The notes under the pieces are model-generated. The model worked only from the letters and a program-made list of their open reading frames with translations, ran no database searches and had not been told where the DNA came from. Positions 29,345 through 58,000 of a DNA stretch of 64,000 bases are shown one piece after another. A program made the position numbers and the translations under genes. Origin of the DNA: Centroscyllium fabricii (lineage: Eukaryota). Position 1 is the stretch's first letter; each line of letters starts with the position of its first letter. The stretch spans positions 163,060,001 through 163,124,000 of the forward strand of contig JBNRSN020000011.1 of the NCBI GenBank assembly GCA_051313645.2. Reading direction: 5' to 3'.

Positions 29345-29864
29345 ATGGAAGGATCCAGCGGCTCTAGTTTTGGAATAGACACTATTTTGTCGAACAGTTC
29401 CGGCAGCCCTGTGCTGGTGAACGGGGATTTTCGCCACGGTGACAACAGGACTTCAGACTTCAGAAACCAGGCCACCCCATCCCCGAGCTCGGAGCTGGAC
29501 GCCGTGGGGACGGCTCCCCTGTCGCCGCTCTGCATGGAGCACCAGGAGCAACAGCATCACGGCCCGGACAGCCTCCATCCACATCAACAGCAAAGTTTGC
29601 AGCAACAGCAGCAGCAGCAGCAGCAACTGGCAGCCGGCAGCTCTGGCCCCAGGACTTCCACATCCTCTTTTTTAATCAAAGACATTTTGGGCGATAGCAA
29701 ACCGCTGGCAGCCTGCGCCCCTTACAGCACCAGCGTCTCGTCACCCCACACCCCCAAACCAGAGGCAGAATCCTTCCGGCAAAAGACAGACCCCGAAGAG
29801 CATAAAAACCGGGACAAGCTCGACAAACGAGATGACACTCAAAGTGATAACATCAAATGCAACG
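29345..29864 (+). CDS. barhl2: BarH-like homeobox 2, coding exon 1
   Basis: MEGSSGSSFGIDTILS...TSSFLIKDILGDSKPLAACAPYSTSVSSP matches the vertebrate BARHL2 N-terminus with two FIL/eh1 motifs and a polyQ tract. Ends AACG|GTGAGT (phase 1 donor at 29865). Confidence 0.96.
29604..29627 (+). repeat. CAG/CAA repeat encoding polyglutamine in barhl2 exon 1
   Basis: CAA CAG CAG CAG CAG CAG CAG CAA run within QQQSLQQQQQQQQQL. Confidence 0.85.
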
Positions 29865-31456: not shown

Positions 31457-31682
31457 GAACAAAAGAAGAAGGCGACCGTGAAATAACGAGTAGCCGGGAA
31501 AGTCCTCCTGTGCGGGCGAAGAAGCCTCGAAAAGCGAGAACGGCCTTTTCCGACCATCAACTCAATCAGCTGGAGCGCAGTTTCGAGCGTCAGAAATATC
31601 TGAGTGTCCAGGACCGCATGGATCTGGCAGCGGCTCTCAACCTGACTGACACCCAGGTCAAAACCTGGTATCAGAACAGGAG
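31457..31682 (+). CDS. barhl2: BarH-like homeobox 2, coding exon 2 (most of the homeodomain)
   Basis: Acceptor TGTTAG|GA. Encodes [76 protein letters not shown] with the Bar-class Tyr49 (WYQN). Donor AG|GTACGT, phase 2. Confidence 0.97.
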
Positions 31683-32995
31683 GTACGTGAGACGTACTGA
31701 TCACACTCATCTGTGTACAGAGAAACGATGCTGCCCACAATCTGTGTGTAATCGGTCACATACTCGGAGTGTCGGTATATTATAGAAACCCATACAGATG
31801 GCACATATTCTGCTTTAAACAATCAGGCTGTAAAAGTATCCCCCCCACCTTCAAAAATAAGCACGCTGCACTGAAGTAACGGTGCGAACTATTTATTGGC
31901 AGCACCAGAAATGCATGGACATTAGTCAGCTGCTGTGCACCAAACTAACGGAAACTGTGCTCCAGAAGCGGATTTCTTGTTGCTCTGAGAGCGAAAGGGA
32001 GAGGTTCTGGCCATCACCTATAAGACAAACACAAGGAATCCACGAACACTTCAAACATTTTCAAAAATTAGTTCCTGTACATTTTCAAACTTTGCAATCA
32101 GAGTCCAATTTTAGCCTTTGCAGAATGGCTGATTATTTTTTTAAAGATCTTATTTTTATAAAAAATGCCTTTTCTACGTTTCTGTAAAGCAAAGTATGTG
32201 CATTTGAAGTGGAGGCTTTCAGCTACTGTTTAAGGTCGCAGTTATATTTTTGTGAAGTGTGTTTATTGTAAATGCATTTGGGCGCGTTTGTTCGATATAT
32301 TTTTTTTGGAGATAGTTTAATCTGAAATGCTCTCAAATTGAACGTTAAACATCTATGTTTAGGACGCAGAGAAAGGCCATTTCCCCCCCCCACCGAACGC
32401 AATTCTGTTTTAGTTAAAAGATATTCCGATATCTCCGTCCGTCCTCGGCTGCTAAAACAGGATGCGACTGTAACCGGAGTTGCAAATGGGCGTCCAGTTG
32501 CCATCCATGCCACAGATTTTCTGTCTCATTACATACAGTTTTCAACCATGCTATCTCTGTCAGAAAACATTAACGTCAGCTGTTCCCCAAATCTAAACAC
32601 GGTTTAATGCATTATACTTTTTAACCTTCTAGCTTATTATTGCAATCCGTTTTTGTTAATTGCTCAGCTAACGCTTTGCACAGCGCGCATGCACACTGAG
32701 GACAGACAATCTCCTTCCTCGATTTGCCTCTGAGCCATGCATTCCCACCTTCCTGTGGGTCAATCTGGCATTAACATTTCAGTTGCTTATTTACTTATTT
32801 GTTTTTGCAATACATTAACATACCGAGCCGCTCAACATAGGTTTAATGCTCAGAAGGAATGGCGAAGATCCCTCCACGTTTGCACACATTTATTGAAGCT
32901 ATGCGTTTTTTAAAAAAATCATCTAAAATACTCAGAACCTCTCTGATGGATATAATCAATCTGTGCACGGGTCCGAATAAGAAGCCATGATGTGG

Positions 32996-33381
32996 AGAGT
33001 CCAACAGTCTCTTTCACCTGACGAAGGGGCAGAAGCTCCGAAAGCTTGTGATTTAAAATAAAACCGTTGGACTATAATCTGGTGTTGTGTGACTTCTTGC
33101 AAGAAGCCACGATGCGTGGAGGTGCCGGTGTTGGACTGGGGTGGACAAATGCAAGAAGTCACACAACACCAGGTTATAGTCCAACAGTTTTAATTAAAAT
33201 CACAACATATATATGTTTTATGATGAGCGGGGGGTGCCGGTGTTGGACTGGGGTGGACAAATGCAAGAAGTCACACAACACCAGGTTATAGTCCAACAGC
33301 TTTATTTGAAATCACAAGCTTTCAGCTTGTGATTTCAAATAAAACTGTTGGACTATAACCTGGTGTTGTGTGACTTCTTAC
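32996..33381. mobile_element. Cluster of four Penelope-like terminal-repeat fragments (+,-,-,+) in barhl2 intron 2
   Basis: Unit TTGTGATTTxAAATAAAACxGTTGGACTATAAxCTGGTGTTGTGTGACTTCTT occurs forward at 33046 and 33327 and reverse at 33150-33205 and 33265-33320. First copy flanked by a near-duplication AAGAAGCCAyGATG. Confidence 0.7.
33014..33051 (+). ncRNA. Minimal type I hammerhead ribozyme motif
   Basis: TCAC-CTGACGA-A-GGGGC-AGAA-GCTCC-GAAA-GC-T-T-GTGA: stem I TCAC/GTGA, intact CUGANGA and GAAA core, 5-bp stem II, palindromic AGCT in place of stem III. Confidence 0.75.
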
Positions 33382-33559
33382 TCATAAGAAACGCATTTGA
33401 AAGCCCCAGATAGATAGATACATTCCATTGCTGGGTATGTTGTTTTTCGCCTCTTGTTAAACCGCCTCTTTCATTTCACTTAAGGGTTATTTGCAATGTG
33501 TTATTTACAAAGCCACCCCCTTCTAATTGCATTCTTTGGCTATTTCTGCCCTATTGCAG

Positions 33560-33851
33560 GACGAAATGGAAGAGGCAGACGGCGGTGGGACTGGAGCTGC
33601 TGGCCGAAGCCGGGAACTACTCCGCTTTGCAGAGAATGTTCCCCTCTCCCTATTTCTACCACCCGAGCCTACTGACTAACATGGACACGACGGCGGCGGC
33701 GGCCATGTACATGTACCGGACTCCACCGCCCCACCCCGGGCTGCAGCGACCGCTGGTCCCGAGGGTCCTCATCCACGGGCTCGGCCCGGCGGGACAGCCC
33801 GCACTCAATCCCCTGCCCAACCCCATCCCCGGCACACCACACCCCCGGTGA
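33560..33851 (+). CDS. barhl2: BarH-like homeobox 2, coding exon 3
   Basis: Acceptor TTGCAG|G. Encodes TKWKRQTAVGLELLAEAGNYSALQRMFPSPYFYHPSLL...PIPGTPHPR, TGA at 33849-33851. Spliced CDS 520+226+292=1038 nt is in frame (345 aa). Confidence 0.97.
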
Positions 33852-39684: not shown

Positions 39685-40150
39685 ATGAGGGAATGAGGAG
39701 AGGGAGAGGGGGAGGGGGAGAGAGAGGGAGGAGAGAGGGGGAGAGAGAGGGAGGAGAGAGGTGGGGGGGAGAGAGGGGGGCGGAGGGGGGAGAGAGAGGN
39801 NNNNNNNNNNNNNNNNNNNNNNNNNNNNNNNNNNNNNNNNNNNNNNNNNNNNNNNNNNNNNNNNNNNNNNNNNNNNNNNNNNNNNNNNNNNNNNNNNNNN
39901 NNNNNNNNNNNNNNNNNNNNNNNNNNNNNNNNNNNNNNNNNNNNNNNNNNNNNNNNNNNNNNNNNNNNNNNNNNNNNNNNNNNNNNNNNNNNNNNNNNNN
40001 NNNNNNNNNNNNNNNNNNNNNNNNNNNNNNNNNNNNNNNNNNNNNNNNNNNNNNNNNNNNNNNNNGGGGTTGGGGAGAAAGGGGGAGGGGAGGGAGAGAG
40101 GGGGATGAGGAGGGGGAGGAGAGGAGGGAGAGAGAGAGAGGGCAGAGAGA
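39685..40150 (+). repeat. Polypurine (G/A) low-complexity tract containing an N-gap (39800-40065)
   Basis: Almost pure G/A on the + strand. Confidence 0.9.
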
Positions 40151-40152
40151 GG

Positions 40153-41283
40153 GCACCTTGGCACATTGGATCCAAAATTAGCTCAGTGGCAGGAAGCAGA
40201 GGGTGATGGTCAAAGGATGTTTTTGTGCCTGGAAGCCTGTGTCCAGTGGGGTACCGCAGGGATCGGTGCTGGGTCCCTTGCTGTTTGTAGTATACATTAA
40301 TCATTTAGATATTAATGTAGGAGGTATGATCAGTAAGTCCGCAGAAGACACGGAGAGTGGTCAAGTGGTAAATAGCAAGGAGGGAAGCCTCAGGCTACAG
40401 GATGATATAGATGGGTTGGTTAGATGGGCAGAACAGTGGCAAATTGAATTTAACCCTGAAAAGTGTGAGGTGATGCATTTTGGGAGGACTAACAAGGCAA
40501 GGGAATACACACTGAATGGCAAGACCCTAGGAAAGACAGAGGATCAGAGGGAAATTGGTGTGCATGTACATAGATCCCTGAAGGTAACAGGACAGGTAGA
40601 TAAGGTGGTTAAAAAGGCATATGGGATACAATAAAGCCCATTGAATCGTGAATCGTGAATCGGGATACTTGCCTGCATTAGCCGAGGCATAGAATATAAG
40701 AGCAGGGAGGTTATGATGGAGCTGTACAAAACGCGGGTAAGACCACAGCTGGAGTACTGTGTGCAGTTCTGGTCGCCGCACTATAGGAAGGATGTGATTG
40801 CTTTGGAGAGGGTGCAGAGGAGATTCACCAGGATGTTACCTGGGCTGCAGCACTTTAGCTATGAAGAGTGACTGGACAGGCTAGGGTTGATTTCCTTGGA
40901 GCAGAGAAGCCTGAATTTTGTACACCTGATTGAGGTGTACAAAATTATGAGGGGCATAAATAGGGTAGATAGAAATGAACGTTTCAGTAGAGGGTTCAAT
41001 AACCAGGGGGCATAGTTTCAAGGTAAGGGGCAGGAGGTTTAGAGGGGATTTGAGGAAAAACCTTTTCACCCAGAGGGTGGTTAGAAACTGGAACTCACTG
41101 CCTGAAAGGATGGTAGAGGCAAGAACCCTTACAACATTCAAGAAGCATTTAGATGAGCATGTGAAACGCCATCGCATACAAGGCTACGGACCAACTGCTG
41201 GAAAATGGGATTAGAATAGACAGGGCTTGATGGCCTGCGCAGACACGATGGGCCGAAGGGCCCCTTTCTGTGCTGTATAACTC
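40153..41283 (+). mobile_element. CR1 LINE, 5'-truncated and decayed
   Basis: [45 protein letters not shown] and CR1 3' UTR. Confidence 0.9.
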
Positions 41284-41284
41284 T

Positions 41285-42550
41285 AGAGAGAGAGGAGGAA
41301 GTGAAGTGAGAAGAGAGAGGGAGAGAGAGGAGAGAGAGTGGAGAGGGAGAGAGAGGGGAGATGAGGGAGAGCGAGGGGAGGGGAGAGAGAGGGGGACAGA
41401 GAGAGGGGAGGGGGAGAGAAAGGGGAGGGGGGAGAGAGTGGGGGAGGGAGGGGAGGGAGAGTGGAGGGGAGGGGAAGAGGAGAGGGAAAGAGGAGGGAGA
41501 GGGGCTGAGTGGAGAGGGGAAGGGAGGGGAGCAGAGAAGGAGGAGAGGGGGAGAAGGAGGGGGGAGAGGGAGGGGGAGAGGGAGAGGCGGGGTGGGAGAG
41601 GGGAGGGGGAGGAGAGTGGGAGGGGGAGGAGATGGGGAGGCAAGGGGGAGGAGAAGGGAGGGGAATGGAGGGGATGGGGAGGCGAAGTGAGAGGAGAAGG
41701 AGGAGAAGGGAGTGAAGGGAAGGGGGTAAGGAGAGGGTGAGGAGAGGAGAAGAGGAGAGAAGAGAAGGGGAGGGGAGGGGAGGGGAGGGGAGGAAGGAGT
41801 GGTGGAGTAAAGAGGAGGTGGTGAGAGGGGAGGGAGGAGAGGTAGAGAGGAGAGGTAGAGGGAGGGGTAGAGGGGAGGGTAGAGGAGAGGGAGGAGGGGA
41901 GGGGAGATGACGGGGTGGAGAGGGGAGGGAGACGAGAAGAGGAGAGGAGAGAGGGAGGAGATTAGGAATGGAGGCAAGGGGAGGGGGAGGAGTGTGGAGG
42001 GGGAGAGGTGGCGGCGAGTACGAGGAGAGTGGAAGGGGGAGTGGGAGGAGAGGGGAGGTGTGGAGAGGAGGGGCTGAGAGGAGGGGAGGAGGGTTGGTGT
42101 GGAGGAGTGGAGGGGTGAGGAGGAGGAGTGGGAGGTGTGTAGAGGAGTGACGGAGGGGAGGGTTGGTGTGATGGGGAGGAGGGCAGGCGGGGAGAGGGAG
42201 GAGAGGGGTGAGGGGAGAGGGAAGGGGAGGGGGAGGCTGGAAGTGGGAGAGGGGCGAGGGAAGGGGAGAGGAGGGGAGGGGGAGGGAAGGATGGGGAGGG
42301 GAGAGGAGGGGATGGGGAGGGGAGAGGGAAGGGGAAGGGAGGATGGGGAGGGAAGGGAGAGGGAAGGGAAGATGGGGAGCGGAGTGGAGCGGAGGATGGG
42401 GAGGGGAGAAGATGGGGAGGGGAAAGGGGAGAGGGAAGGGGTAGGGAAGATGGAGAGGGGCGGGGAGAGGATGGGGAGGGGAAAGGGGAGAGGGAAGGGG
42501 TAGGGAAGATGGAGAGGGGAGGGGAGGGGAGGAGAGGATGGGGAGGGGAG
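41285..42550 (+). repeat. About 1.27-kb polypurine GGGGA/GGAGA-rich low-complexity tract
   Basis: Dense G3-G6 runs separated by A. It accounts for the spurious Pro/Ser/Leu-rich and Gly/Arg/Glu-rich ORFs. Confidence 0.95.
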
Positions 42551-43765
42551 TCAGCCTCACTCCAGGTGAGCACATTCAGGGAGGAGGCGCGACTCATCCA
42601 ACTCCAGTCAGCTCCTGTCAGGCCATTCATACCAACGTTAAACCCTGGAAGCCTGGAGTAAGCTTTGTTTTAATGAATATATAATGGGTTCGCAGTGATT
42701 GAAGGACGAAATCTCCCCTCTGGCCATGCCCACAAGTCGCAGCTCGACCGCAACTGGGCGCCAACACCAGCTGAAGGGAGCGGAGTGAAAGTGATGAAGC
42801 GAAGATGTCTGTCCCTTTAGTTACATGACACACATTAACCGTAACACAGAAATTCCCAGAGAATTGCCTTGTTCCCCAGCTTACATGAGCCCATGTAGGG
42901 CGCTTTAATTGCCACATTTTCAACCGAAACTCGGTGATATAATGGGGGATGTCTTAGTCATTACCTTAATGAGCTAACACCTTCCCTTCCTTCAGCCTAC
43001 TCATTATCACGCCTCATGCTCCACTTAAACGACAGCGACTTTTGTTAAATAAATGGGAGGCTTGAAAGTTTAATATGTAAAAAAAAGGACCAGGTTTCTA
43101 CACTGCAAAATGCGAGCGTGCATAAATTTACACAGAATAAGCAAGATAGTAAGCAAAGGTAGAAATTGTGCCGCCTGGGGAGCAGAAGAAGGGGGGGGGG
43201 GGGGGGGGAGGATGTCCTTTAATTATAGTTGGCTGAACCCTCTGTTACTTGACCCGCAGTGGTGCCTAGGTGTCAGGGTAGTGAGTTTTAAGGCGGCGGG
43301 CTGTGAATGTGTGCAGTTGCACCGTTGATGGATTTTGAAAGGTATTGTAACAGGGTTAGCCTCCATGTAAAGCGAGAAGTGAGATTTTTTTTCTTGTTGT
43401 TGTTGCAAAGAAGGCTGTGGTTGCAGATGGACGTTTATGTTCCATGGACTGGTCAAAGAAGCTCCTCGGCACAGGGCACTGGGCCGCCAGCCAGCGCCAT
43501 TGACGCTTCTCAGACTGATGAGAGCACCACTTGAGTCCGAAAGGTGGTTTTATTTTTCAAGCCGAATCTCATCTAACTTTTGACCTCGACAATGTATTAT
43601 CAACCTAGCAGACTGTTAATGTAAAAAAAAAACAGATACACGCCGTATAAACTGTTTTTTTTTTTTGCGCAGTGAGCCATATAGCTTCTGATTTCAACTG
43701 TGAAGCATCCTGCACCATTATAACTTTTTGATATTTATAAACATTTCATATAAAATTATCTGCAC

Positions 43766-44341
43766 TGTGGCATAGTGGTTAGCACTGTTGCCTCACAGCA
43801 CTGGAGACCCGGGTTCAAATCCAGCCTCGGGTACTAAAATTCAAATTCAAATTCAAAATAGCTTTATTGGCATGAATGGTATCAACCGTTGTTGCCAAAG
43901 CATTGTAATATACATAAAAATAATACATTAGTAGACGTAATAACAACAGTACTAACAGGATATATACAACAGCATCCGTAATAATATTAATAGATATATA
44001 GTTTAAATGCAGTTTCTATTGGTGTGGAGTTTGCACATTCTCCCCGTGTCTGCGTGGGTTTCCTCCGGGTGCTCCGGTTTCCTCCCACAGTCCAAAGATG
44101 TGCGGGTTAGGTTGTTTGGCCAGGATAAATTGACCCTTAGTGTTAGGGGGATTGAATATGTGGGGTTACGGGGATAGGGTGGGATATGTGCCAGTGCAGG
44201 CTCGAGAGGGATCAAGGGGTATGGGGAGAGGGCAGGGGCGGGGTGCTGGGTTGTGTTGATCAGCCATGATCTCATTGAATGGCGGAGCAGGCTCGAAGGG
44301 CCGAATGGCCTACTCCTGTTCCTATCTTCTATGTTTCTATG
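43766..44341 (+). mobile_element. HE1-type SINE interrupted by an about 180-bp retroposon 3' tail (about 43836-44015)
   Basis: tRNA head 43766-43832, AT-rich insert with (TTCAAA)n and TTTATTGGCATG, then the V-domain resumes at about 44020. Confidence 0.85.
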
Positions 44342-44378
44342 TAACTCAGCTGGCCAGGCAGCATCGCTTGACCGAGAA

Positions 44379-44773
44379 CGGCGGCACGGTGGCATAGTGG
44401 TTAGCATTGTTGTCTCACAGCACTGGAGACCCAGGTTGAAATCCAGCCTCGGGTGACTATCTGTGTGGAGTTTGCACATTCTCCCCGTGTCTGCGTGGGT
44501 TTCCTCCGGGTGCTCCGGTTTCCTCCCACAGTCCAAAGATGTGCGGGTTAGGTTGGTTGGCCATGATAAATTGACCCTTAGCGTTAGGGGGATTAGAATA
44601 TGTGGGGTTACGGGGATAGGGTGGGATATGTGTTGATGCAGGTTCGATAGGGATATGGGGACAAGGCAGGGACAGGGTACTGGGTTTGGATGATCAGCCA
44701 TGATCTCATTGAATGGCGGAGCAGGCTCGAAGGGCCGAATGGCCTACTCCTGCTCCTAGTTTCTATGTTTCTA
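44379..44773 (+). mobile_element. HE1-type V-SINE, full length
   Basis: Head, V-domain and CR1 tail. Tandem to the previous copy, separated by a short fragment (44343-44378) similar to the Penelope terminal repeat at 48226-48260. Confidence 0.9.
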
Positions 44774-46319
44774 TCTCAACATTACGAAAACCGATCATAC
44801 AGTCCCATGCTAATGCAATCCTATTAAACTTGTATATTCAACACGAAACTGAACTCGGATTCAACAACGATGACGCCTCTCTTTCCCCCTCGTGGCTTGC
44901 TGAACCGTATTGCACACAGTAATGATTTCATATGCCCATCTCAAATGACGAGCATCAACATATTGACCGGGAGGTTTAACCGTTCACTACACACCAGAAG
45001 ATGTACTTTCCACCCTTCGGTGTTCGAAAGGCGAAATGAACAAAATAGAATTGATTTCGAATAAGTATACCACATGCTATATTAACAAACACTTGCCAAT
45101 GAATGACAAATTTACATACACATGATGTCAGACGGCGATATTTTTGCAGCCTTAATTGGTTTGGCTTGAGGCATTCTTGTGTCAAAATGGAGTGTGTTGC
45201 TTCCCTCGAGTTGCCTGCTTCTCTGCAACACTTTCATTCGATCTGTCTGCATTCTCTTTAATGTCGTGTCCATCCAGGAAGTAAGTTAATTATTGATATC
45301 AACATTGAAGGAATAAAATACTAAACAAATAAGCGTAAGCAAGTGAAATATTTACACGGGCATTGCTGTAGAAATAACACAATTTCTGCTAAAATGTTGG
45401 AATAATCTTTCTTAAAAAAAAAGTTCACGGTATATTTAAAGTTTCTGTCTATGGAGATTTTATCAAGGCTTGTGGAAGTGCGAGGGAGCCAGCTGGCAGC
45501 GCAGGTTGACATCGACTTGACTGCTTTGTGTCTGTAGAATCATCCAGCTAGCATTTTGGGTCTTTTGTGAAATAATAACTTGTTTTTGTTCAGCTCACTG
45601 TACAATTAAAAAAGAGCGTCAGAGAATGGATCCGCCATAGCTGGAGTTAAGGGCAACCACCGCGGAATGAATATTTAGATATGACAACTGTAACTCAATT
45701 ATTTCTGCTAAATCAAGAGATACGATTTTTATGTGACAGCACTGTGCCTTCCGAATCAGCAGAGAGAAATTGACGACTTCTTCACACTTCTGGACCAGGT
45801 TCAGTGCATCGGAGGAGTAGGGGGTTGGGTTTAACCACCACTTATCCAATCGAATAATTTAAAAACCCCTATTAAACTCGTTGTGGTACATTGAAACTGG
45901 GTCAAGCTGTTTAGTCTCCCCCAGTGTTAGCATATACACAATTAATTAGGATGAGCCGACACGATTCATCACAAATTGGCACTAAATTGGCAACCCATTC
46001 AGAGAATAGCTCGTGGTGGAAGCAAAGAGAGAGAGAGAGAGAGAATCACACGGGGGCACTGGGGATGTGCTTAGGTTGGTAGTCAAGGGCCACGCTGGGG
46101 CAAAGTCTCATTCTGCTTCCGGCTTGTATTGTCATTAAGGTGGAAGTGTCTGGTGCTGATTGTGACTGCTCATCCTTAGTACTCATCTTGATGAGTTAAA
46201 TATTTACCGAAACATTTAATTGTTAAATATAAATCTAGACAGTAAGGGAATTGCACGAACGCCCCCCCCCCAAAAAAAAATGGCAAAACCTGTATTTACA
46301 AATTGTCTTATGGCTTCAT

Positions 46320-46838
46320 AAACGGGCCTTTTTCCGAGTGGCAGACAGTGACTAGTGGGGTACCGCAGGGATCGGTCCTTGGACCCCAGCTATTCACAAT
46401 ATATATTGATGATAATATAAAATTCTAACAGGACTGGACAGACAAGATGCAGGAAGGATGTTCCCGATGGTCAGGTTGCCCAGAACCAGGGGTCACAGTC
46501 TAAGGATAAGGGGTAAGCCATTTAGGACAGAGATGAGGAGGAATTTCTTCACCCAGAGAGTGGTGAACCTGTGGAATTCTCTACCACAGAAAGCAGTAGA
46601 GGCCAGTTCATTAAATATATTCAAGAAGGAGTTGGATATATTTCTTAAAGCTAAAGGGATCAAGGGGTATGGGGAGAAGGCAGGGACAAGGTACTTCTTC
46701 TTATCGTGTCTTCTTTCGAAGTGGTGGATGGAGTTTTTAACAGACCGGTTAACGGTCTGCTTTTTGACCGCGTGTTAGCGCCTCCTCCGTGGTCACTGCC
46801 TGCTATTGCACCTGGTCTTCCCCGATGGTCTCCCATCC

Positions 46839-46871
<33 letters not shown>

Positions 46872-47985
46872 CGAGGTCGACTTGGGATCGGGCGTTCTAG
46901 ACTAGCAGGCCGGGGCTGACAAGGTACTAAAATTGAATGATCAGCCATGATCACATTGAATGGCAGAGCAGGCTCGAGGGGCCGAATGGCCTACTCCTGC
47001 TCCTATCTTTTATGTTTCTATGATCTGGACGAGGGAACCAGATGTAATATCTTCAAGTTTGCAGATGACATAAAGCTGGGTGGACATGTGTGCTGTGAGG
47101 GAGATGCTGAGAAACTCCAGTATGATTTGGACAGGTTGGGTGATTGGGCAGAAGCATGGCAGATGCAGTATAACATGGATATATGTGAGGTTATCCACTT
47201 TGGTGGCAAAAACAGGAATGCAAATTATTATCTGAATGGCAATTGATTGGGAGAAGGGGAAGTGCAACGAGATCTGGGTGTCCTTCTGTACCAGTCGCTG
47301 AAGGTAAGCATGCAGGTGCAGCAGGTGGCTAAGAAGGCAAATGGTATGTTGGCCTTTGTAGTGAGAGGATTCGAGTACAGGAGCAAGGATGTCTTGCTGC
47401 AATTGTACAGGGCCTTGGTGAGACCACATCTTGAATATTGTGTGCAGTTTTGGTTGCCTTATCTGAGGAAGGATGTTCTTGCCATGGAGGGAGTGCAGCA
47501 AAGATTCACCAGACTGATACCTGGGATGGCAGGAATGACGTATGAGGAGAGATTGGGTCAATTGGGCTTACACTCGCTGGAGTTTAGAAGAATGAGAGGG
47601 GATCTCATTGAAACTTATAAAATTTTAACAGGACTAGACAGACTAGATGCAGGAAGGATGTTTCTGATGGCCAGGGAGTTCAGAACCAGGGGTCACAGTC
47701 TAAGGATAAGGGGTAAGCCATTTAGGACAGAGATGAGGAGGAGTTTCTTCACCAAGAGAGTGGTGAACCTGTGGAATTCTCTACCACAGAAGGCAGTTGA
47801 GGCTAATTCATTAAATATATTCAAGAAGGAGTTAGATATATTTCTTAAGACTAAAGGGATCAAGGGATATGGGGAGAAAGCAGGGACAGGGTACTGAATT
47901 TGGATGATCAGCCATGATCGCATTGAATGGTGGAGCAGGCTCGAGGGGCCAAATGGCCTGCTCCTGCTCCTATCTTCCATGTTTC
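46320..47985 (+). mobile_element. CR1 LINE fragment containing a nested CR1 3' fragment (46414-47019)
   Basis: Outer copy [15 protein letters not shown]|LDEG..KFADD..HLEYCVQFW. Inner copy bounded by an ATGAT duplication (46409-46413, 47020-47024). Confidence 0.88.
46696..46917 (-). mobile_element. 5S rRNA-derived SINE (SINE3-type) or 5S chimeric retrocopy
   Basis: 46917-46799 is 5S-like (box A AGCTAAGCAG, box C TTGGATGGGAG) followed by about 100 nt unrelated to 5S ending TAAGAAGAA. Exact 11-bp TSD GACAAGGTACT (46685-46695, 46918-46928). Confidence 0.85.
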
Positions 47986-48171
47986 ATCAAAGCCCCTCTG
48001 GAAGCATTTCAAGCAACACATTGCTTTTTGAAACATTCTATTATTAGGTAGGTAATTCTATAATTTGAGTGGGAGCTGTGTTTTAGACGGTGGAACAACA
48101 AAGTTAGGAGTTTGGTACTCTGGCCAAAATTCCTGAGATTCCTTCAAATAAACGAATGGCATTTTTATGTT

Positions 48172-49746
48172 AGTAAAATCCTGTGGATGTTGGAAATCCA
48201 AAATAACAACAGAAAATGCTGGAAAAACTCAGCAGGCCAGGCAGCATCGGTGGAGAGAGAAATATAGAGTCGACGTTTCAGGTCGATGACCCTTCGTCAG
48301 AACTGGAAAAAAGCAGGAAATGGAAAGCCGGGGTGGGGCTGGGAAAAGGGGGAGGGGATGAAAGAACAAAAGGGAAGGTCAGTGAGAGGATAGAAAGCGG
48401 GAGAGATTGAGAGACATTCAAGGCGAGAGGAGGTGGGAATGGGACAGGTTAAGGAACAAAGGGTGGCTCTAGATGGGGTGTGAATTGCGCTGGCAGAGTG
48501 AAGGACAGCTGAAGGGAGGGAAGAAAAAACAAAAAGTGTGGGGAAAAAAAGAATATATATATATATCTGATAGGGGCCGAGGTTATGATCTGAAATTGTT
48601 GAACTCTATGTTGAGTCCAGAAGACTGTAGAGTGCCTAATCTGAAGATGAGGTGTTGTTCCTCGAGCTTACGCTGAGCTTCCGTGGAACAATGCAAGAGT
48701 CCAAGGATGGTGAGGTCTGAGTGGGAATGGGGCAGTGAATTAAAGTGACAGGCGACCAGGAGCTCGGGGCCCCCCTTACGGACTGAACGGAGGTGTTCCA
48801 CAAAGCGGTCACCCAATCTGCGTTTGGTCTCCCCAATGTAGAGGAGACCACATCGTGAGCAGCAAATACAGTATACTAAATTACAAGAAGTACACGCAAA
48901 TCGCTGTTTCACCTGGAAGGGGTGTTTGGGGCCCTGGACAGTGGGAAGGGGGGAGGTATAAGGGCAGGTGTTGCATCTCCTGCGCTTGTATGGGATGGTG
49001 CCGGGAAAAGGGGAAGGGTTGCTGGGGGTGGTAGAGGAGTGGACTAGGGTGTCTCGGAGGGAGCGGTCCCTATGGCATGCTGAAACAGGAGGTGAGGGGA
49101 AGATGCGTTTGGTTGGTGGGATCATGCTGGAGGTGGCGAACATGGTAGCAGATGATCCATTGAATGTGGAGGCTGGTGGGGTGAAAGGTGAGGACAAGGG
49201 GAACCCTCTCGTGGTTCCGGGAGGGAGCTGCAGGGGTGAGGGCAGAAGTGCGGGAGCTAGAACGGACACGGTCGAGGGCCGTGTCAACCACAGTCGAGGG
49301 GAATCCTCGGTTGAGGAAAAAGGAAGACATGTCGGAAGCACTGGTGTGGAAGGTGACATCGTCGGAGCAGATGCGGCGGAGATGGAGAAACTGGGAGAAT
49401 GGAATAGAGTCCTTACAGGAGGCGGAGTGAGAGGAAGTGTAGTCCAGGTAGCTGTGGGAGTCAGTGGGCTTATAGTGAATGTTAGTCAATAACCGATCCC
49501 CAGAGATGGAGACAGAGAAGTCGAGGAAGGGAAGGGAAGAGTCGGAGATGGACCATGTGAAGGTGAGGGAAGGGGGGAAATTGGAAGCAAAGTGAATGAA
49601 ATTTTCTAGTTCAGGGCGAGAGCAGGAGACGGCACCGATACAGTCATCAATGTACCGGAAAAAGAGGCGAGGGAGGGGACCCGAGTAGGGCTTTCCATTT
49701 CCTGCTTTTTTCCAGTTCTGACGAAAGGTCATCGACCTGAAACGTT
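48172..49746 (-). mobile_element. Penelope-like element, 5'-truncated, with inverted 5' terminal-repeat fragment
   Basis: RT FRYIDDCIG (ORF 49070-49732) and GIY-YIG endonuclease NLVYCICCSRCGLLYIGETKRRLGDRFVEH..VACHFN..GLN (ORF 48583-49359). 49689-49745 is an inverted copy of 48273-48329. 17-bp TSD AATGGyATTTTTATGTT (48155-48171, 49747-49763). Confidence 0.92.
48268..48304 (-). ncRNA. Minimal type I hammerhead ribozyme motif in the Penelope 3' repeat
   Basis: Minus strand AGTT-CTGACGA-A-GGGTC-ATC-GACCT-GAAA-CG-T-C-GACT: intact core, GUC cleavage triplet, palindromic ACGT stem III. Confidence 0.8.
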
Positions 49747-49748
49747 AA
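49714..49748 (+). ncRNA. Hammerhead motif in the inverted 5' repeat, truncated at the cleavage site
   Basis: AGTT-CTGACGA-A-AGGTC-ATC-GACCT-GAAA-CG-T-T, followed directly by the TSD. Confidence 0.7.
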
Positions 49749-50439
49749 TGGTATTTTTATGTTGCACCAAAAGATTCAGGATTGCACACTGATTTGAGCA
49801 GGCAGATTTTTTTTCCCCACTGCAAACTTCCATCAAAGTGAAGTTGGAGAAGGCAGAGCACCATATATGGCCTTGAGGGGCTGGCGATATATTTAATGAC
49901 TGTAAAATGCTGATGAGTTAGTCAGCCCTTTTCAATCATTAATAGTGCAACTGTACTGCCCATCTTGTTTTACTGAGCAGAGATTTCTGCTTTGCAGTAT
50001 CACGAGATGTACATTATAACTGGAGCAACACTGACATTAGTTTTGGCATTTTTGCATAATGTGTGATTCTATCAAGAGAAGGCAGCCTTTCGCTGCTTTG
50101 GGTTCAGACTGGTTGCAATCTGGTGAAAAGCCAATGTTTTAAAGTTTAAAAAGGGTTTGCTCCACCAGTGTTAGATTTCTAGTTTTATAAAAGACTCAGG
50201 TGCCCCCATTTTGCCAATTTGAAATTTCACAACAACACAAACATACCGCACCTGTAACACACGGAAATGTTGATAGAAACATAATCAGACAAAAAATTGA
50301 CTCCGAGTCAAAGAAAGAAATATTAGGAGGATGATTAAACGCTTGGTTAGAGGTAGGTTATAAAGAGGGTCTTTAATGGAGGGGAGAGAGGCGGAGAGGC
50401 AGAGAAATTTTGGGTGGGAATTACAGAGCTTAGGCCCTT

Positions 50440-50660
50440 GGGTATCTATGGAATTCTCAGAGGGCTGTGAATGCTGAGCTTTTGAGTAATTTCAAGGCTG
50501 AGATAGATAGATTTTTGGACTCTAGGGGAATCAAGGGATATGAAAATCAGGTGGGAAAGTGGAGTTGAGGTCGATGATCAGCCGTGATCTTACTGAATGA
50601 TGGAGCAGGTTTGAGGGGCCGCATGGCCTATTCCTGCTCTTATTTCTAATGTTCTTATAT
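50440..50660 (+). mobile_element. CR1 3' fragment inserted in L2
   Basis: TATGGAATTC..TTCAAGGCTGAGATAGATAGATTTTTGG..GATGATCAGCCGTGATCTTACTGAATGATGGAGCAGG. Confidence 0.75.
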
Positions 50661-51469
50661 CCTAGAAGGCTTAAGGCACAGCTGGTGAGGTGAAGGGAGT
50701 GGGGAATACACAAGAGGCCAAAGTTGGAGGAGCACAGATTCTTGGAAGGTTGCAGTTTTGGATGAGCTTGAATTTATGCCGAGTGGAGGATGGGAGGGGG
50801 CCAGGAGAGCATTGGAATAGTCTATTGGAGGATAGTTGTTGAGCGAGGTAGTGTCATCAGCATACATGTGAAAACTAAAGCTGTGTCTTTGGACAACGTA
50901 GCTAAAGGGCAGAATGTAGATGAGAAAGAGGAGGAGGTCAAGGGTAGATCTTTAGGGGACTTCAGAGATAACGGTGAGGGATTGGGAAGAGAAACCATTG
51001 CTGGAGATTCTCCGCCTATAATTGGATTGGGAAGAGTGGAACCAAGTGAGGGCGGTCCCACTCAGCTGGACAACGATTGAGAGGCATTTGAGCAGGATTG
51101 TGTAGTTGACCATGTCCAAGACTGCAGAGTGGTCGAGAAGGCCAATGAGGGATAGTGCACCATGGTCACAGGCACAGAAGATGTCATTTGTGACTTTGAT
51201 TAGCGTGGTTTCAGTGCTGTGGCAGAGGCAGAAACCTCATTGGAGAGGCTGAACTATGGAGTTGCAGGACAATTGGGCATATATTCAAGGCAACAACACA
51301 TATGGGCAGGATTTTCCTCAGGCCATGAGGCAGGTTTCCGGGCGGGACTGCAGTGAAAATAGCAGAAATGGGGGTTCGCGACCCCTCCCGCCGCCTTCCC
51401 GCCCGCTTGTCAATTTCACCCGGCGGGTCTGGTCGGCCCGCCTCAGTCCTCATTAGGGGCCCTTAATTA

Positions 51470-54400
51470 AATTTTATTTTTTATTTTTTATTCATTGATG
51501 GGATGTGGGCGTCGCTGGCTGGCTAGGCCTGCATTTAGTGCCCATCACTAATTGCCCTTGAGAAGATGGTGGTGAGCTGCCTTCTTGAACCGCTGCAGTC
51601 CATATGGTGTAGGTACACCCACAATGTTGTTAGGAAGGGAGTTCCAGGATTTTGGCCCAGCGACAGTGAAGGAGCGGCGATACAGGTCCAAGTCAGGATG
51701 GTGTGTGGCTTGGAGGGGAACTTGTAGGTGGTGTTGTTCCCATGCGTCTGCTGCCCTTGTCCTTCTAAGTGGTAGAGGTCGTGGGTTTGGAAGGTGCTGT
51801 TGAAGGAGCTTTGGCGAGTTGCTGCAGTGCATCTTGTAGATGGTACACACTGCAGCCACAGTGCGCCGGTGGTGGAGGGAGTGAATGTTGGAGGTGGTGG
51901 ATGGAGTGCCAATCAAGCGGCCTGCTTTATCCTGAATGGTGTCGAGCTTCTTGAGTGTTGTTGGAGCTGCACTCATCCAGGCAAATGGAGAGTATTCCAT
52001 CACACTCCTGACTTGTGCCTTGTAGATGGTGGAAAGGCTTTGGGGAGTCAGGAGGTGAGACACTCGTCGCAGAATTCCCAGCCTCTGGCCTGCTCTTGTA
52101 GCCACAGTATTTATATGGCTGGTCCAGTTCAGTTTCCGATCAATGGTAACCCCCAGGATGTTGATAGTGGGGGATTCAGCAATGATAATGCCATTGAATG
52201 TCAAGGGGAGATGGTTAGAGTCTCGCTTGTTGGAGATGGTCATTGCCTGGCACTTGTGTGGTGCGAATGTTACTTGCCACTTGTCAGCCCAAGTCTGAAT
52301 GTTGTCCAGGTCTTGCTGCATATGGACACGGACTGCGTCAGTATCCGACGAGTCTCGAATAGTGCTGAACATTGTGCAATCATCAGCAAACATCCCCACT
52401 TCTGACCTTATGATGGAGGGAAGGTCATTGATGAAACCGCTTAAGATGGTTGGGCCCAGGACACTGCCCTGAGGAACTCCTGCAGTGATGTCCTGTGGTT
52501 GAGATGAATGGCCTCCAACAACCACAGCCAACTTCCTTTGTGCTAGGTATGATTCCAACCAATGGAGAGTTTTCCCCTTGATTCCCATTGACTTCAGCTT
52601 TGCCAGGGCTCCTTGATGCCACACTCGATCAAATGCTGCCTTGATGTCAAGGGCAGTCACTCTCACCTCACCTCTTGAGTTCAGCTCTTTTGTCCATGTT
52701 TGGACCAATGCTGTAATGAGGTCAGGAGCCGAGTGGCCCTGGCGGAACCCAAACTGGGCATCAGCAGGTTATTGGTGAGTAAGTGCCGCTTGATAGCATT
52801 GTCGACGACACCTTCCATCACTTTGCTGATGATTGAGAGTAGACTGATGGGACGGTAATTGGCCGGGTCGGATTTGTCCTGCTTTTTGTAGACAGGACAC
52901 ACTTGGGCAATTTTCCACATTGCTGGGTAGATTTGATTTGATTTGATTCAATTTATTGTCATTGCACAGTGAAACACAGTACAACGAAATGCCTTCTTGC
53001 AAACTTCCCAAGAACGATGCAGTTGTTTAAAATGTCCATTGCTTTTAAGTCCCAGACTGTTCAACTCTATGTTGGCCCTCTATGGTGCTCCGACCACGCA
53101 GGCACCGGCACTCCAACTCTGCAGGCCCCAGCGCCCCGAACCCGCCGACCTCCAGCGCTCCGAACTCGGTGACCACACAGGCACCGGCACTCTGTCTCTG
53201 CAGGCCCCAGTGCTCCGTACTTGCCGACCTTCGGCACTCCGACCTCGGTGACCACGCAGGCTCCCCAGTGCTCCAACAAGTCCGACCTCAGTGCACCACC
53301 ACGCCGAACCCGACATCCCCGCCGAGCGAACAGCCTCAGGACTACCAGCGGACAGCATCCCCGGGAGACGCAAAGCCGCTGCGTGTACAGTGTAGATGCC
53401 AGTGTTGTAGCTGTACTGGAACAGCTTGGCTAGGGGCACAGCTAGTTCTGGAGCACAAGTCTTCAGTACTATTGCCGGAATGTTGTCTGGGCCCACAGCC
53501 TTTGCAGTATCCAGTGTCTTCAGCCGTTTCTTGACATCACGTGGAGTGAATTGAATGGGCTGAAGACTGGCATCTGTGATGCTGGGGACCTCAGGAGGAG
53601 GCCGAGATGGATCAGCCACTCGGCATTTCTGGCTGAAGATAGTTGCAAATGCTTCAGCCTTGTCTTTTGCACTCACGTGCTGGGCTCCACCATCATTGAG
53701 GATGGGGATATTTTTGGAGCCTCCTCCTCCTGTCAACTGTTTAATTGTCCTCCACCACTCACAACTGGATGTGGCAGGACTGCAGAGCTTTGATTTGATC
53801 CGATAGTTGTGAGATCGCTTAGCTCTGTCTATCGCATGTTGCTTCTGTTGTTTGGCATGCAAGTAGTCCTGTGTTGTAGCCTCGCCAGGTTGACACCTCA
53901 TTTTTCGGAATGCCTGGTGCTGTTCCCGGCATGCTCTCCTGCACTCTTCGTTAAACCAGGGTTGATCTCCCGGCTTGATGGTAATGGTAGAGTGAGGGAT
54001 ATGCCGGGCAATGAGGTTACAGATTGTGGTTGAATACAATTCTGCTGCTGCTGATGGCCCACAGCGCCTCATTGATGCCCAGTTTTGAGTTGCCAGATCT
54101 GTTCGAAATCTGTCCCATTTAGCACGGTGGTAGTGCCACACAACACGGCGGAGGGTATCCTCAACATGAAGACGGGACTTCGTCTCCACAAGGACTGTAC
54201 GGTGGTCACTTCCACCAATGCTGTCATGGACAGATGCATCTGCAACAGGTAGATTGGTGAGGATGCGATCAAGTAGGTTTTTCCCTCTTGTTGGTTCCCT
54301 CACCACCTGTCGCAGACCCAGTCTGGCAGCTATGTCCTTTAGGACTCGGCCAGCTCGGTCAGTTGTGGTGCTATCGAGCCACTCTTTGTGATGGACATTG

Positions 54401-55062: not shown

Positions 55063-58000
55063 GTAATGCCATTTTAAGGGCCCCTTGCTACTTTGACCCT
55101 CTTCCCACCCAGAACCCGCTTGGTGGGATCACCGCCGTTGAAAGCTGGCGGGCACCCAATCGGCTGGGTGACTGCCACTTCAAGGCATGGGAAACAGCAG
55201 CCACACAGCGGCTTGCTAGCCTCCACCATGCTGGAGGGGTAACTGGCACCCAAGGGTGCCAAACTTCAGTGCTCAAAGAACTAAAAATCACTTACCTGCT
55301 GATGGGTCCCACTAACTCACAGACATCGTGCTGCGAGCTGTGCATGTGAAGCAAAGTGTCAATCACCCAGTGGATCAGTTTCTGTTTACATTCCACTGAA
55401 ACCACAAACAAACAGAGCCAGCCTACTTAAAGCTGTCACTCTTAGATTTGTGGTTTCATCTATTGACATATCATTATGACATCATCATGCCCTGAAACTA
55501 CAGAAAGAGAAACACCAAGCCTATCAGTGCAGCTGCCAATCATTGGCTCTGCTGCTGACACAGGTCAAAGCCTGCCCAGTTTCCAGGCCAAATCCCTCAA
55601 TTGCTAGGATTTTCCCACACTCTAGGAATTAATTGGCCAATTAAGCCAAAACTGCGTGGGGATTTCACACCCTTCAAAAAGTGGGAAGATAGAATGATCA
55701 GCGGGGATCCCACCCATTTCCCACACCATCAGGAAAATCCTGCTCATAGAGTTTACTTTACATGAATAACGTTTTAATGGAGAAGCCAAGCCTTTGTAGG
55801 ATTTAAATCGTCTGGATTGAATCTTCCAGTGTGGTTTATGCATAGGGTAGGGAATGGCTAATAAGGGTTCTTAAACATGGTGTACACCATTCATCCAGTT
55901 TGTGTAGCTCTTTGTAGCCCTGGACCATAGACATATCATAGTATTGCCACAATCGGTTGGCATAGACTTGGGAGTTCTCATCCGCTTGTTGTCTACACTT
56001 ACTTGAGATATCAATGGGGTCCCTTTGATCAAATCCTATTGACTTTAAGATTTTGGAGAGGAAAGGGAGGTGGGAGATGGGGTGTTAGTTTGCAAGGCGA
56101 GAGGGATCATGTATGGCTGTTTTGAGGTGGGGGGAGGTGTGATGGCAGATTTGAAAGGTAGGGGGACAATACCTGATGAGAGGGAACTGTTTACAGTGTC
56201 TGCTAGCATGGGGCTAGGAAGGGAAGTTGGGTGATCAGCAGTTTAGTGGGAATAGAATCAAGAGAATAGGAGGTGGGTCTCATGGATAAAATTAGCTTGG
56301 AGAGTGTCTGAGGGGAGATAGGAGATAAATCAAAAATAGACGTGGGTTCATGGCAAAGGCAGGGGTAACCTGGGGCAAAGTTTGGCTTGGTGGGCAAGGT
56401 GAAGGGGGGGGAGTGATGCATCAGAGGCAACTGAAGAGATGGTCTGATTCTTATTGACAAAGAAGTCCATGAGCTCCTCGCACTTGCTGTTGAAGGTGAG
56501 GGTGTAGGGGCCGGGGAAGGGGATTAAGGATATAGTTGGTAGTGGCAAAAAGAAGCCACTATAGAAAGGGGTTATCTTTGATTCCAGGATGATCCTGAAA
56601 TAGTGAACAGTTTTGGCAGAGGAGCGCAGGACCCGATCGTGCTTGATGTTGTCCGGCCAGGTTCATAACCAGACACATCCATCACCAGATCTGGCTTGCT
56701 GTAGTGGCTTCCTTTTTCTACTAGCAACTCCGGGTCAAGTCTGGACCCGTTGGACTTGAGGAAGCAAAGTTGGCAGCCCTACCAGGGGGAGAAACCAGGA
56801 TGGGAGAGATTAAGGGTTTTACTGGGGACAAGGATGTCAAAGGTGGAGGTGCGGGATTGATTGAGCTGATCAACAACTTCAGAAATATCATTGTGAATGG
56901 AGGGCCAAAGGGTAGCCAGTTGAGAGTTTGAAAGTGCAGTTTTAAGTGACTTTGTGGAGAGCTTTTTCCAGGGGCAGAGATAGAAGGAAGTTAGGTTGGA
57001 AGGAGGAAGGAGGTTGTTATTGGTGAGGAATACAAGGAAGTGTTCAGTGATGACCTTGTCTGTGATTGAGACAAATAGAATCGAGAAATGGCAAGGCTGA
57101 GTGGGTGACTGTGAATATTGTAGGAGAGTTAAAATGGAGGGAGACGTTAAGGGAGGATAGGAAGGCAGTGAATGGGTGGTAGGAGAGAGGGCCAAGCTGA
57201 GTTGAGATGGAGATTGAAATCACAGAGGATGAGGTGTTGCTTAGTGTAAAGGCTGAGGGAGGAAAGGAGTGAGGATATCTTGGTGAGAAACTCAGGTTGG
57301 GGCTTGGGTGGATGGTAAAGAATGATGATTTTAAATGAGAGGCAAGAGGGGTGGAACAAGGTGAGGTGCTCAGAGAAGGAGAAGGTGCTAGTTTAGTAGG
57401 GGGAGAGACCAAGGTGCGATTTGGTGATTAGCGCCACACCACCATTGCGTTTGGCCGGGGCAAGTGCTGGAAAGTATAGCCAGGCAGGTGGACTGGGGGA
57501 AGGTGCCGTCACCCATGAACTGAGTTTTTGTCAAGGCCATGATGTCAATGCAATCATCCATGATAAGATCGTAGATGGCAAAAGCCCTGTTTGAATGGAT
57601 ATTCTGGGGATAGATGCAGAGTGGGGTGGCAGTTATTGATCTGCTGGCTAAGTCCAAGGGGTTGGCAGTGGAAGGGGAGCGCAGAATGGGAATGAGGTTG
57701 GCCAGATTAGCTCCCAGCCAGTGTGCTGGGTGGGAAGGCCAGCAATAGAGCAGGATGGAGCAACTGAGGTTGCTGCTTGTAAGAAGGCAGCGACAAGTAC
57801 CTCAAAATGTCAAAAGAGGCACAGAGCAAAGCTGTGGGCTTATCAAAGAGGAATGGTGGCATGAGAGTGTTAACTCACTCACTCTGTGAGGAGGACCCAC
57901 CCTCCTGGGGGGTCTGGGTTCTTACTTTAGGAGACTAAACACGTCGGTCAGTCTGTCACTTTCTCAGTAATACACAAAGTCAGAGACTGTAAAATAATTA

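What the first reader, a model, noticed from the sequence alone, without database searches (positions are those of the whole stretch)
33014..33051. Sense-strand hammerhead ribozyme motif inside barhl2 intron 2
Seen: all hammerhead core nucleotides (CUGACGA, GAAA, UH) with pairable stems I and II, on the strand transcribed into barhl2 pre-mRNA about 510 nt upstream of the exon 3 acceptor. Known: Penelope-like elements carry minimal hammerheads whose palindromic stem III lets them cleave as dimers. Inference: a second sense copy at 33324-33332 (AGCT-T-GTGA) supplies exactly the substrate strand, giving a 4-bp stem III with 33043-33046 and stem I with 33014-33017. A complete ribozyme could therefore assemble within one intron, in competition with the antisense copies. 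This would be a potential conditional self-cleavage switch in a homeobox pre-mRNA. It may equally be an inert relic.
Basis: partly seen in the sequence, partly recalled or inferred. Interest (0 to 1): 0.8.

Follow-up and report, generated by a model that had tools for sequence, protein, structure and literature searches.

The report
Penelope-element hammerhead relic in barhl2 intron
The small self-cutting-RNA motif is really there, but it is one of about 13,000 identical copies carried by the tail of a Penelope-like jumping gene, its proposed partner strand is predicted to be locked in a long hairpin, and it is most likely an ordinary inert passenger in the barhl2 intron.

Summary
The motif at 33014-33051 is a complete minimal type I hammerhead on the barhl2 sense strand, 509 nt before exon 3. 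It is not special to this gene. The exact 38-mer occurs 12,920 times in the genome and a sister variant 25,380 times. At two other loci the motif lies downstream of reverse transcriptase and GIY-YIG reading frames with a Neptune-type linker. It is therefore the pseudo-LTR hammerhead of a Penelope-like element, a kind described in 2014, where a single tested motif was inactive and dimers cut weakly. The second sense copy at 33324 is the right arm of a 56-bp fold-back hairpin. Freeing it is predicted to cost 10-20 kcal/mol against a gain of 3.6, and the first copy's own cleavage site is paired by another antisense arm. The proposed in-intron switch is therefore unlikely. Conservation in related species could not be tested. 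The scan has noted this same kind of motif in other shark and ray genomes.

The parts
33014..33051 (+). Minimal type I hammerhead motif; predicted cut site after 33047
   Evidence: Sequence parse; 12,920 exact copies
33008..33101 (+). Sense fragment of the Penelope-like pseudo-LTR holding the motif, lacking the terminal tail of about 34 nt
   Evidence: 97-100% identical to other copies over about 95 nt; same truncation class as 20 of 40 sampled loci
32984..33007 (-). Likely remnant of an inverted pseudo-LTR tail with an internal deletion
   Evidence: Resembles the left junctions of other insertions and 33101-21 (D10); inferred
33116..33205 (-). Antisense pseudo-LTR arm with tail, ending before the hammerhead; pairs with 33046-33101
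   Evidence: I3, 56 nt, 93%
33230..33323 (-). Second antisense arm with tail, bearing the sister-subfamily letters
   Evidence: D1, I1, I2
33324..33379 (+).
   Evidence: I2, 98%, 3-nt loop
32977..32983 (+). Candidate target-site duplication ATAAGAA, left copy
   Evidence: Read; no empty site seen, so unconfirmed
33384..33390 (+). Candidate target-site duplication ATAAGAA, right copy
   Evidence: Read; unconfirmed
31683..33559 (+). Host intron 2 (GT...AG, 1877 nt) of a BarH-like 2 type homeobox gene

Best explanation
The motif is an intact copy of the minimal hammerhead carried in the terminal repeat of a very abundant Penelope-like retroelement, and it likely lies inert in the barhl2 intron because its only nearby partner strand is predicted to be locked in a hairpin. 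Shown: family membership, copy number, linkage to RT and GIY-YIG frames elsewhere, and the inverted-arm anatomy. Inferred: 32984-33383 arose from two or more 5'-truncated, fold-back insertions of two subfamilies at one target. The motif's role, if any, is in the element's own RNA, where it would cut as a dimer. In the pre-mRNA the single motif has only a 1-bp stem III and would not cut alone; about 150 nt later its cut site would be paired by the 33150-33205 arm, and the 33324 strand would fold back on 33312-20 as it emerges.
For: 12,920 exact copies, evenly on both strands, control 0; 25,380 matches to a sister pattern. 29 of 29 other loci fetched match the repeat only, not the unique flanks. 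In L031 and L032 the motif lies downstream of RT (PF00078, E 4e-11 and 8e-10) and GIY-YIG (PF01541, E 1e-4) frames, with a C-x4-C-x2-C linker. 19 of 40 sampled loci have an inverted arm upstream and 20 of 40 lack the tail, the anatomy described in PMC8557442. 10 of 25 junction rows have flanking duplications of 11-16 nt. The proposed cis fold lies 16.5 kcal/mol above the ensemble at its best moment and 63 in the full RNA in a nested model. A separate estimate gives a cost of 10.0-19.6 against a gain of 3.6. PMC4209133: a single min-HHR showed no detectable cleavage; dimers and trimers showed low activity.
Against: The core is undamaged and on the sense strand. A downstream sense half copy is uncommon: 1 of 40 sampled loci had one within 1 kb. 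Stems I and II of the single motif are only 1.6-2.6 kcal/mol from the ensemble until about 33150 is transcribed, so a short window exists for a partner in trans. The folding model ignores tertiary contacts, magnesium and proteins. No cleavage assay, RNA data or orthologous intron was available.
Confidence: 0.88

Rival explanations
1. One reading: the 33014-46 strand captures 33324-32 in cis and cuts the intron after 33328, as a conditional switch on barhl2 splicing.
For: All 8 needed pairs are standard and nest without a knot. The two strands alone gain 3.6 kcal/mol on binding. The sense arm starts exactly at the first stem III base. Such a layout was seen in only 1 of 40 sampled loci.
Against: The strand is 81-100% paired in its own hairpin. 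Freeing it costs 10.0 kcal/mol as it emerges and 19.6 once 13 more bases are made. The start point is explained by fold-back at the AAGCTT palindrome (inferred). The arm bears sister-subfamily letters, so the pairing follows from family identity. Published dimers cut only weakly.
Confidence: 0.03
2. The motif cuts at a low level in trans, pairing with another transcript that carries a family copy during the short time before the antisense arm is made.
For: More than 38,000 potential partners in the genome. Stems I and II are accessible early. Stem III is a palindrome built for dimers.
Against: Only 4 bp of intermolecular helix; an active two-copy fold (-19.5 kcal/mol) is above the co-fold minimum (-24.9). 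The window lasts about 150 nt of transcription. Published activity is low.
Confidence: 0.04
3. The insertion affects the pre-mRNA through its long double strands (A-to-I editing or small-RNA processing), not by catalysis.
For: Two long hairpins, minimum free energy -236 kcal/mol, z = -17.7 against 100 shuffles. Sub-threshold matches to many unrelated miRNA-precursor models show a generic long hairpin.
Against: No RNA data. Fold-back arms are common in the family (19 of 40), so any editing would be generic. No effect on the gene is shown.
Confidence: 0.05

Closest known systems
Minimal hammerheads (min-HHR) in pseudo-LTRs of metazoan Penelope-like elements (Cervera and De la Pena 2014, PMC4209133; parts 1-2 of 4 of the text read)
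   Same: Type I core, 4-bp helix I, extra base between positions 9 and 10.1, G10.1-C11.1 pair, palindromic 15-16 region, mostly solo or opposite-strand copies, linked to RT and GIY-YIG frames in a few places.
   Different: Helix II is 5 bp (7-8 bp in the Schistosoma families). At least 38,000 copies of two subfamilies here, against about 4,000 (coelacanth) and 9,000 (Xenopus) in that paper.
Neptune clade of EN+ Penelope-like elements (Craig et al. 2021, PMC8557442; passages read)
   Same: C-terminal GIY-YIG, CX2-5CxxC linker between RT and endonuclease, inverted 5'-truncated copy, 30-40 bp tail at one end only.
   Different: Clade assigned from the linker motif only, with no tree; Nematis also has a linker motif. 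The window holds only repeat fragments and no reading frame.
Domesticated intronic hammerheads of amniotes, such as the one in RECK (as described in PMC6155905; passages read)
   Same: Type I hammerhead in the sense strand of a vertebrate intron, derived from a retroelement.
   Different: Those are conserved across species and drawn with tertiary contacts. This one is identical to thousands of dispersed copies, has no stable helix III, and no cross-species conservation was shown.
Non-LTR retrozymes (bioRxiv 10.64898/2026.07.22.740005; part 1 of 5 and passages read)
   Same: Non-coding, type I hammerhead, derived from Penelope pseudo-LTRs.
   Different: Retrozymes are head-to-tail tandems with at least two full motifs; here there is one full motif and inverted arms.

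Membership tests
PLE minimal hammerhead | Conserved core CUGANGA / GAAA / UH | tested here: met
PLE minimal hammerhead | Helix I of 4-5 bp, helix II opened by G10.1-C11.1, extra base after A9 | tested here: met
   features
PLE minimal hammerhead | Palindromic helix III region (dimer type) | tested here: met
   AGCT at 33043-46
PLE minimal hammerhead | Lies in the terminal repeat of an RT plus GIY-YIG element | tested here: met
   At loci L031 and L032; not in the window itself
PLE minimal hammerhead | Self-cleavage as a dimer | not testable with these tools
   Needs an in vitro assay
Neptune clade | CX2-5CxxC linker between RT and endonuclease | tested here: met
   C-x4-C-x2-C in L031 and L032; definition
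Neptune clade | Placement in an RT tree | not tested
   No named reference sequences at hand
Rfam hammerhead families | Score at the gathering threshold | tested here: not met
   No hammerhead hit
Non-LTR retrozyme | Two or more tandem units, each with a full motif | tested here: not met
   One full sense motif here; 0 of 40 sampled loci had a second within 1 kb
Domesticated intronic ribozyme | Conserved at the orthologous site across species | tested here: inconclusive
   Three other species' contigs covered the repeat but almost none of the unique flanks or exon 3
Domesticated intronic ribozyme | Active fold accessible in the host transcript | tested here: not met
   Predicted 16.5-63 kcal/mol above the ensemble; prediction only

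The most novel reading that the evidence does not exclude
Nested Penelope insertions built by chance a split hammerhead inside a homeobox intron. When a helicase or RNA editing loosens the 33265-33379 hairpin, the freed 33324-32 strand completes the ribozyme and cuts barhl2 pre-mRNA: a conditional two-part ribozyme switch caught at its origin.
Probability: 0.03. Interest if true: 0.75.

Novelty: new member of a known kind. Interest (0 to 1): 0.07.

Why it matters
As it stands, little: it is one more copy of a known retroelement motif. Two points have some use. The family has at least 38,000 intact-looking motifs in this genome, so thousands would be expected in sense introns by chance (inference, assuming about a third of the genome is intronic), and a single intronic copy is not evidence of function. 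The abundant young family would also be good material for the open question of what these motifs do for the element. If the split ribozyme did cut, it would show how a mobile ribozyme can become a host-gene switch.

Tried and rejected
Rfam: no hammerhead match at gathering score over the window or at E up to 10 over 32800-33600. 14 of the 18 weak hits are miRNA-precursor models, all far below threshold, so a miRNA gene was rejected as a generic hairpin match. That Rfam models need a full helix III is recalled, not tested.

Orthology: contigs of organisms C, D and F covered the repeat bins at high depth but only 9-10 of 30 bins in all and none of exon 3, so neither presence nor an empty site could be shown; records may have been filtered. 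A second sample of the same organism label carries the insertion on unique contigs (32913-33012 and 33367-33840), but it comes from one study and is not independent. No RNA holder was listed.

PDB search with the RT frame found nothing. One endonuclease fragment (L031:6481-6903) had no Pfam hit; 3 of 4 fragments scored. The crude duplication finder missed or under-called 15 of 25 rows.

The 40 loci were hand-picked from the first 100 listed matches on one contig, not drawn at random. The 29 loci were best hits, so their identity is biased upward.

Paper searches: 'barhl2' with 'ribozyme' gave 0 papers. 'hammerhead ribozyme' with 'shark' and 'Penelope' gave 1, where 'shark' refers to the shape. 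A six-term search on intronic cleavage and exon tethering gave 0. One search was seen as a listing only. Supplements of PMC4209133 and of the preprint were not read and may list cartilaginous-fish motifs.

Full report
Observation. The + strand at 33014-33051 reads as stem I (TCAC/GTGA), core CTGACGA, one extra A, a 5-bp stem II with one G-U pair, GAAA, GC, U16.1 and H17 = U. The host gene is real: exons 29345-29864, 31457-31682 and 33560-33851 splice at GT-AG sites into a 345-aa frame, and the exon 2 homeodomain part is identical over 57 aa to a BARHL2 chain. That the rest of the protein fits barhl2 better than barhl1 is recalled, not tested. The motif is in intron 2, sense, 509 nt before exon 3. 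Rfam does not recognise the motif.

It is a repeat. A search with 33000-33110 gave 52 matches from 40 scored of 384 candidates, the best ones 97-100% identical over about 95 nt. The exact 38-mer occurs 6,491 + 6,429 = 12,920 times in 7.2 Gb, against 0 for the reversed pattern. A sister pattern with a G-to-A change and a 3-nt loop in stem II occurs 25,380 times. Together that is about one motif per 190 kb, or roughly a 1% chance per 1.9-kb intron (my arithmetic). In the 29 other loci only the repeat matched, not the intron's unique flanks. The repeat is also abundant in contigs of three other species.

It belongs to a Penelope-like element. L031 and L032 each hold two inverted partial elements with the motif downstream of the reading frame and in the same sense. 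The frames hit RVT_1 (E 7.8e-10 and 4.3e-11) and GIY-YIG (E 1e-4, just over the cutoff); a fourth fragment had no hit. A C-x4-C-x2-C motif lies between RT and endonuclease, the linker given for Neptune-type elements in PMC8557442 (passages). That paper describes an inverted 5'-truncated copy and a 30-40 bp tail at one end only. In 40 hand-picked exact-motif loci, 19 had an inverted arm upstream, 20 stopped at 27-42 of 68 terminal bases, 12 were complete and 8 could not be scored. 10 of 25 junction rows had 11-16 nt flanking duplications.

Anatomy here. 33008-33101 is a tail-less sense copy with the motif; 33116-33205 and 33230-33323 are antisense arms with tails; 33324-33379 is a tail-less sense arm that folds back on the previous one with a 3-nt loop. 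The last two arms carry TTTCAAATAAA, seen with the 3-nt-loop stem II in 6 of 8 listed cases, whereas the motif's own arm carries TTTAAAATAAA (small sample, only the 25 commonest classes could be printed). I infer at least two insertions. ATAAGAA flanks the whole at 32977-83 and 33384-90 and may be a target duplication, but no empty site was seen. The fold-back starts at the AAGCTT palindrome, which likely explains why the arm begins exactly at the substrate letters.

Can it cut? PMC4209133 (parts 1-2 of 4 read) reports exactly this architecture, no detectable cleavage for a single motif, and low activity for dimers and trimers. In this intron the region folds into two long hairpins (z = -17.7). 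33048-51 pairs with 33200-03 at 0.997 or more, and 33325-32 with 33312-19 at 0.999 or more. The last figure is overstated because the model forbids knots. Allowing for that, freeing the 9-nt strand costs 10.0 then 19.6 kcal/mol and binding it gains 3.6. These are nearest-neighbour predictions without tertiary or protein effects. That a CUU site cuts less well than GUC is recalled.

Against my reading: the core is intact; a downstream sense half copy was seen in only 1 of 40 loci; stems I and II are within 1.6-2.6 kcal/mol of the ensemble until about 33150; and conservation could not be tested, since relatives' contigs did not cover the unique flanks.

Comparison. It works like, and meets every sequence-testable feature of, the minimal hammerheads of Penelope pseudo-LTRs. 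It is not a retrozyme (no tandem). It is not shown to be a domesticated intronic ribozyme like the one in RECK. A 2026 preprint found retrozymes in one cartilaginous fish and, in Xenopus, 42-44% of retrozymes in introns, though depleted there. Earlier scan notes report the same kind of motif in other shark and ray genomes; my reading was set before I saw them, and they are not counted as evidence.

Verdict: observation confirmed, new member of a known kind, most likely inert here. Interest 0.07.

Noticed in passing
window about 48270-48304 (-) and 49714-49750 (+): Two copies of a second minimal hammerhead family (stem II with a 3-nt loop, ACGT palindrome). The minus-strand copy has pairable stem I and a GUC site; the plus-strand copy has a damaged stem I. 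Related copies occur in L007 and L023.
   Followed up: partly
window 46797-46910 (-): 5S rRNA match at 58.7 bits with a damaged 5' end; probably a pseudogene or the head of a 5S-derived SINE.
   Followed up: no
window about 32716-32819: The only unique intron 2 bins upstream of the insertion with any depth in other species' contigs; could be a short conserved non-coding element or chance matches.
   Followed up: no
L031:1500-7470 and L032:6200-8920: Inverted pairs of partial Neptune-type elements with broken reading frames; a CR1-like fragment interrupts one copy in L031 (the CR1 label is recalled).
   Followed up: partly
window 40001-52000 and 56001-58000: Strong positive GC skew (up to 0.63 per 2 kb), suggesting G-rich simple or tandem repeats.
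   Followed up: no
window about 29590-29630: CAG-rich tract coding a glutamine run in barhl2 exon 1.
   Followed up: no
junctions of L004, L006, L011, L012, L018, L024, L025, L027: Several target duplications begin with CAAGA, which continues the element's cut end; this suggests microhomology or a target preference.
   Followed up: no
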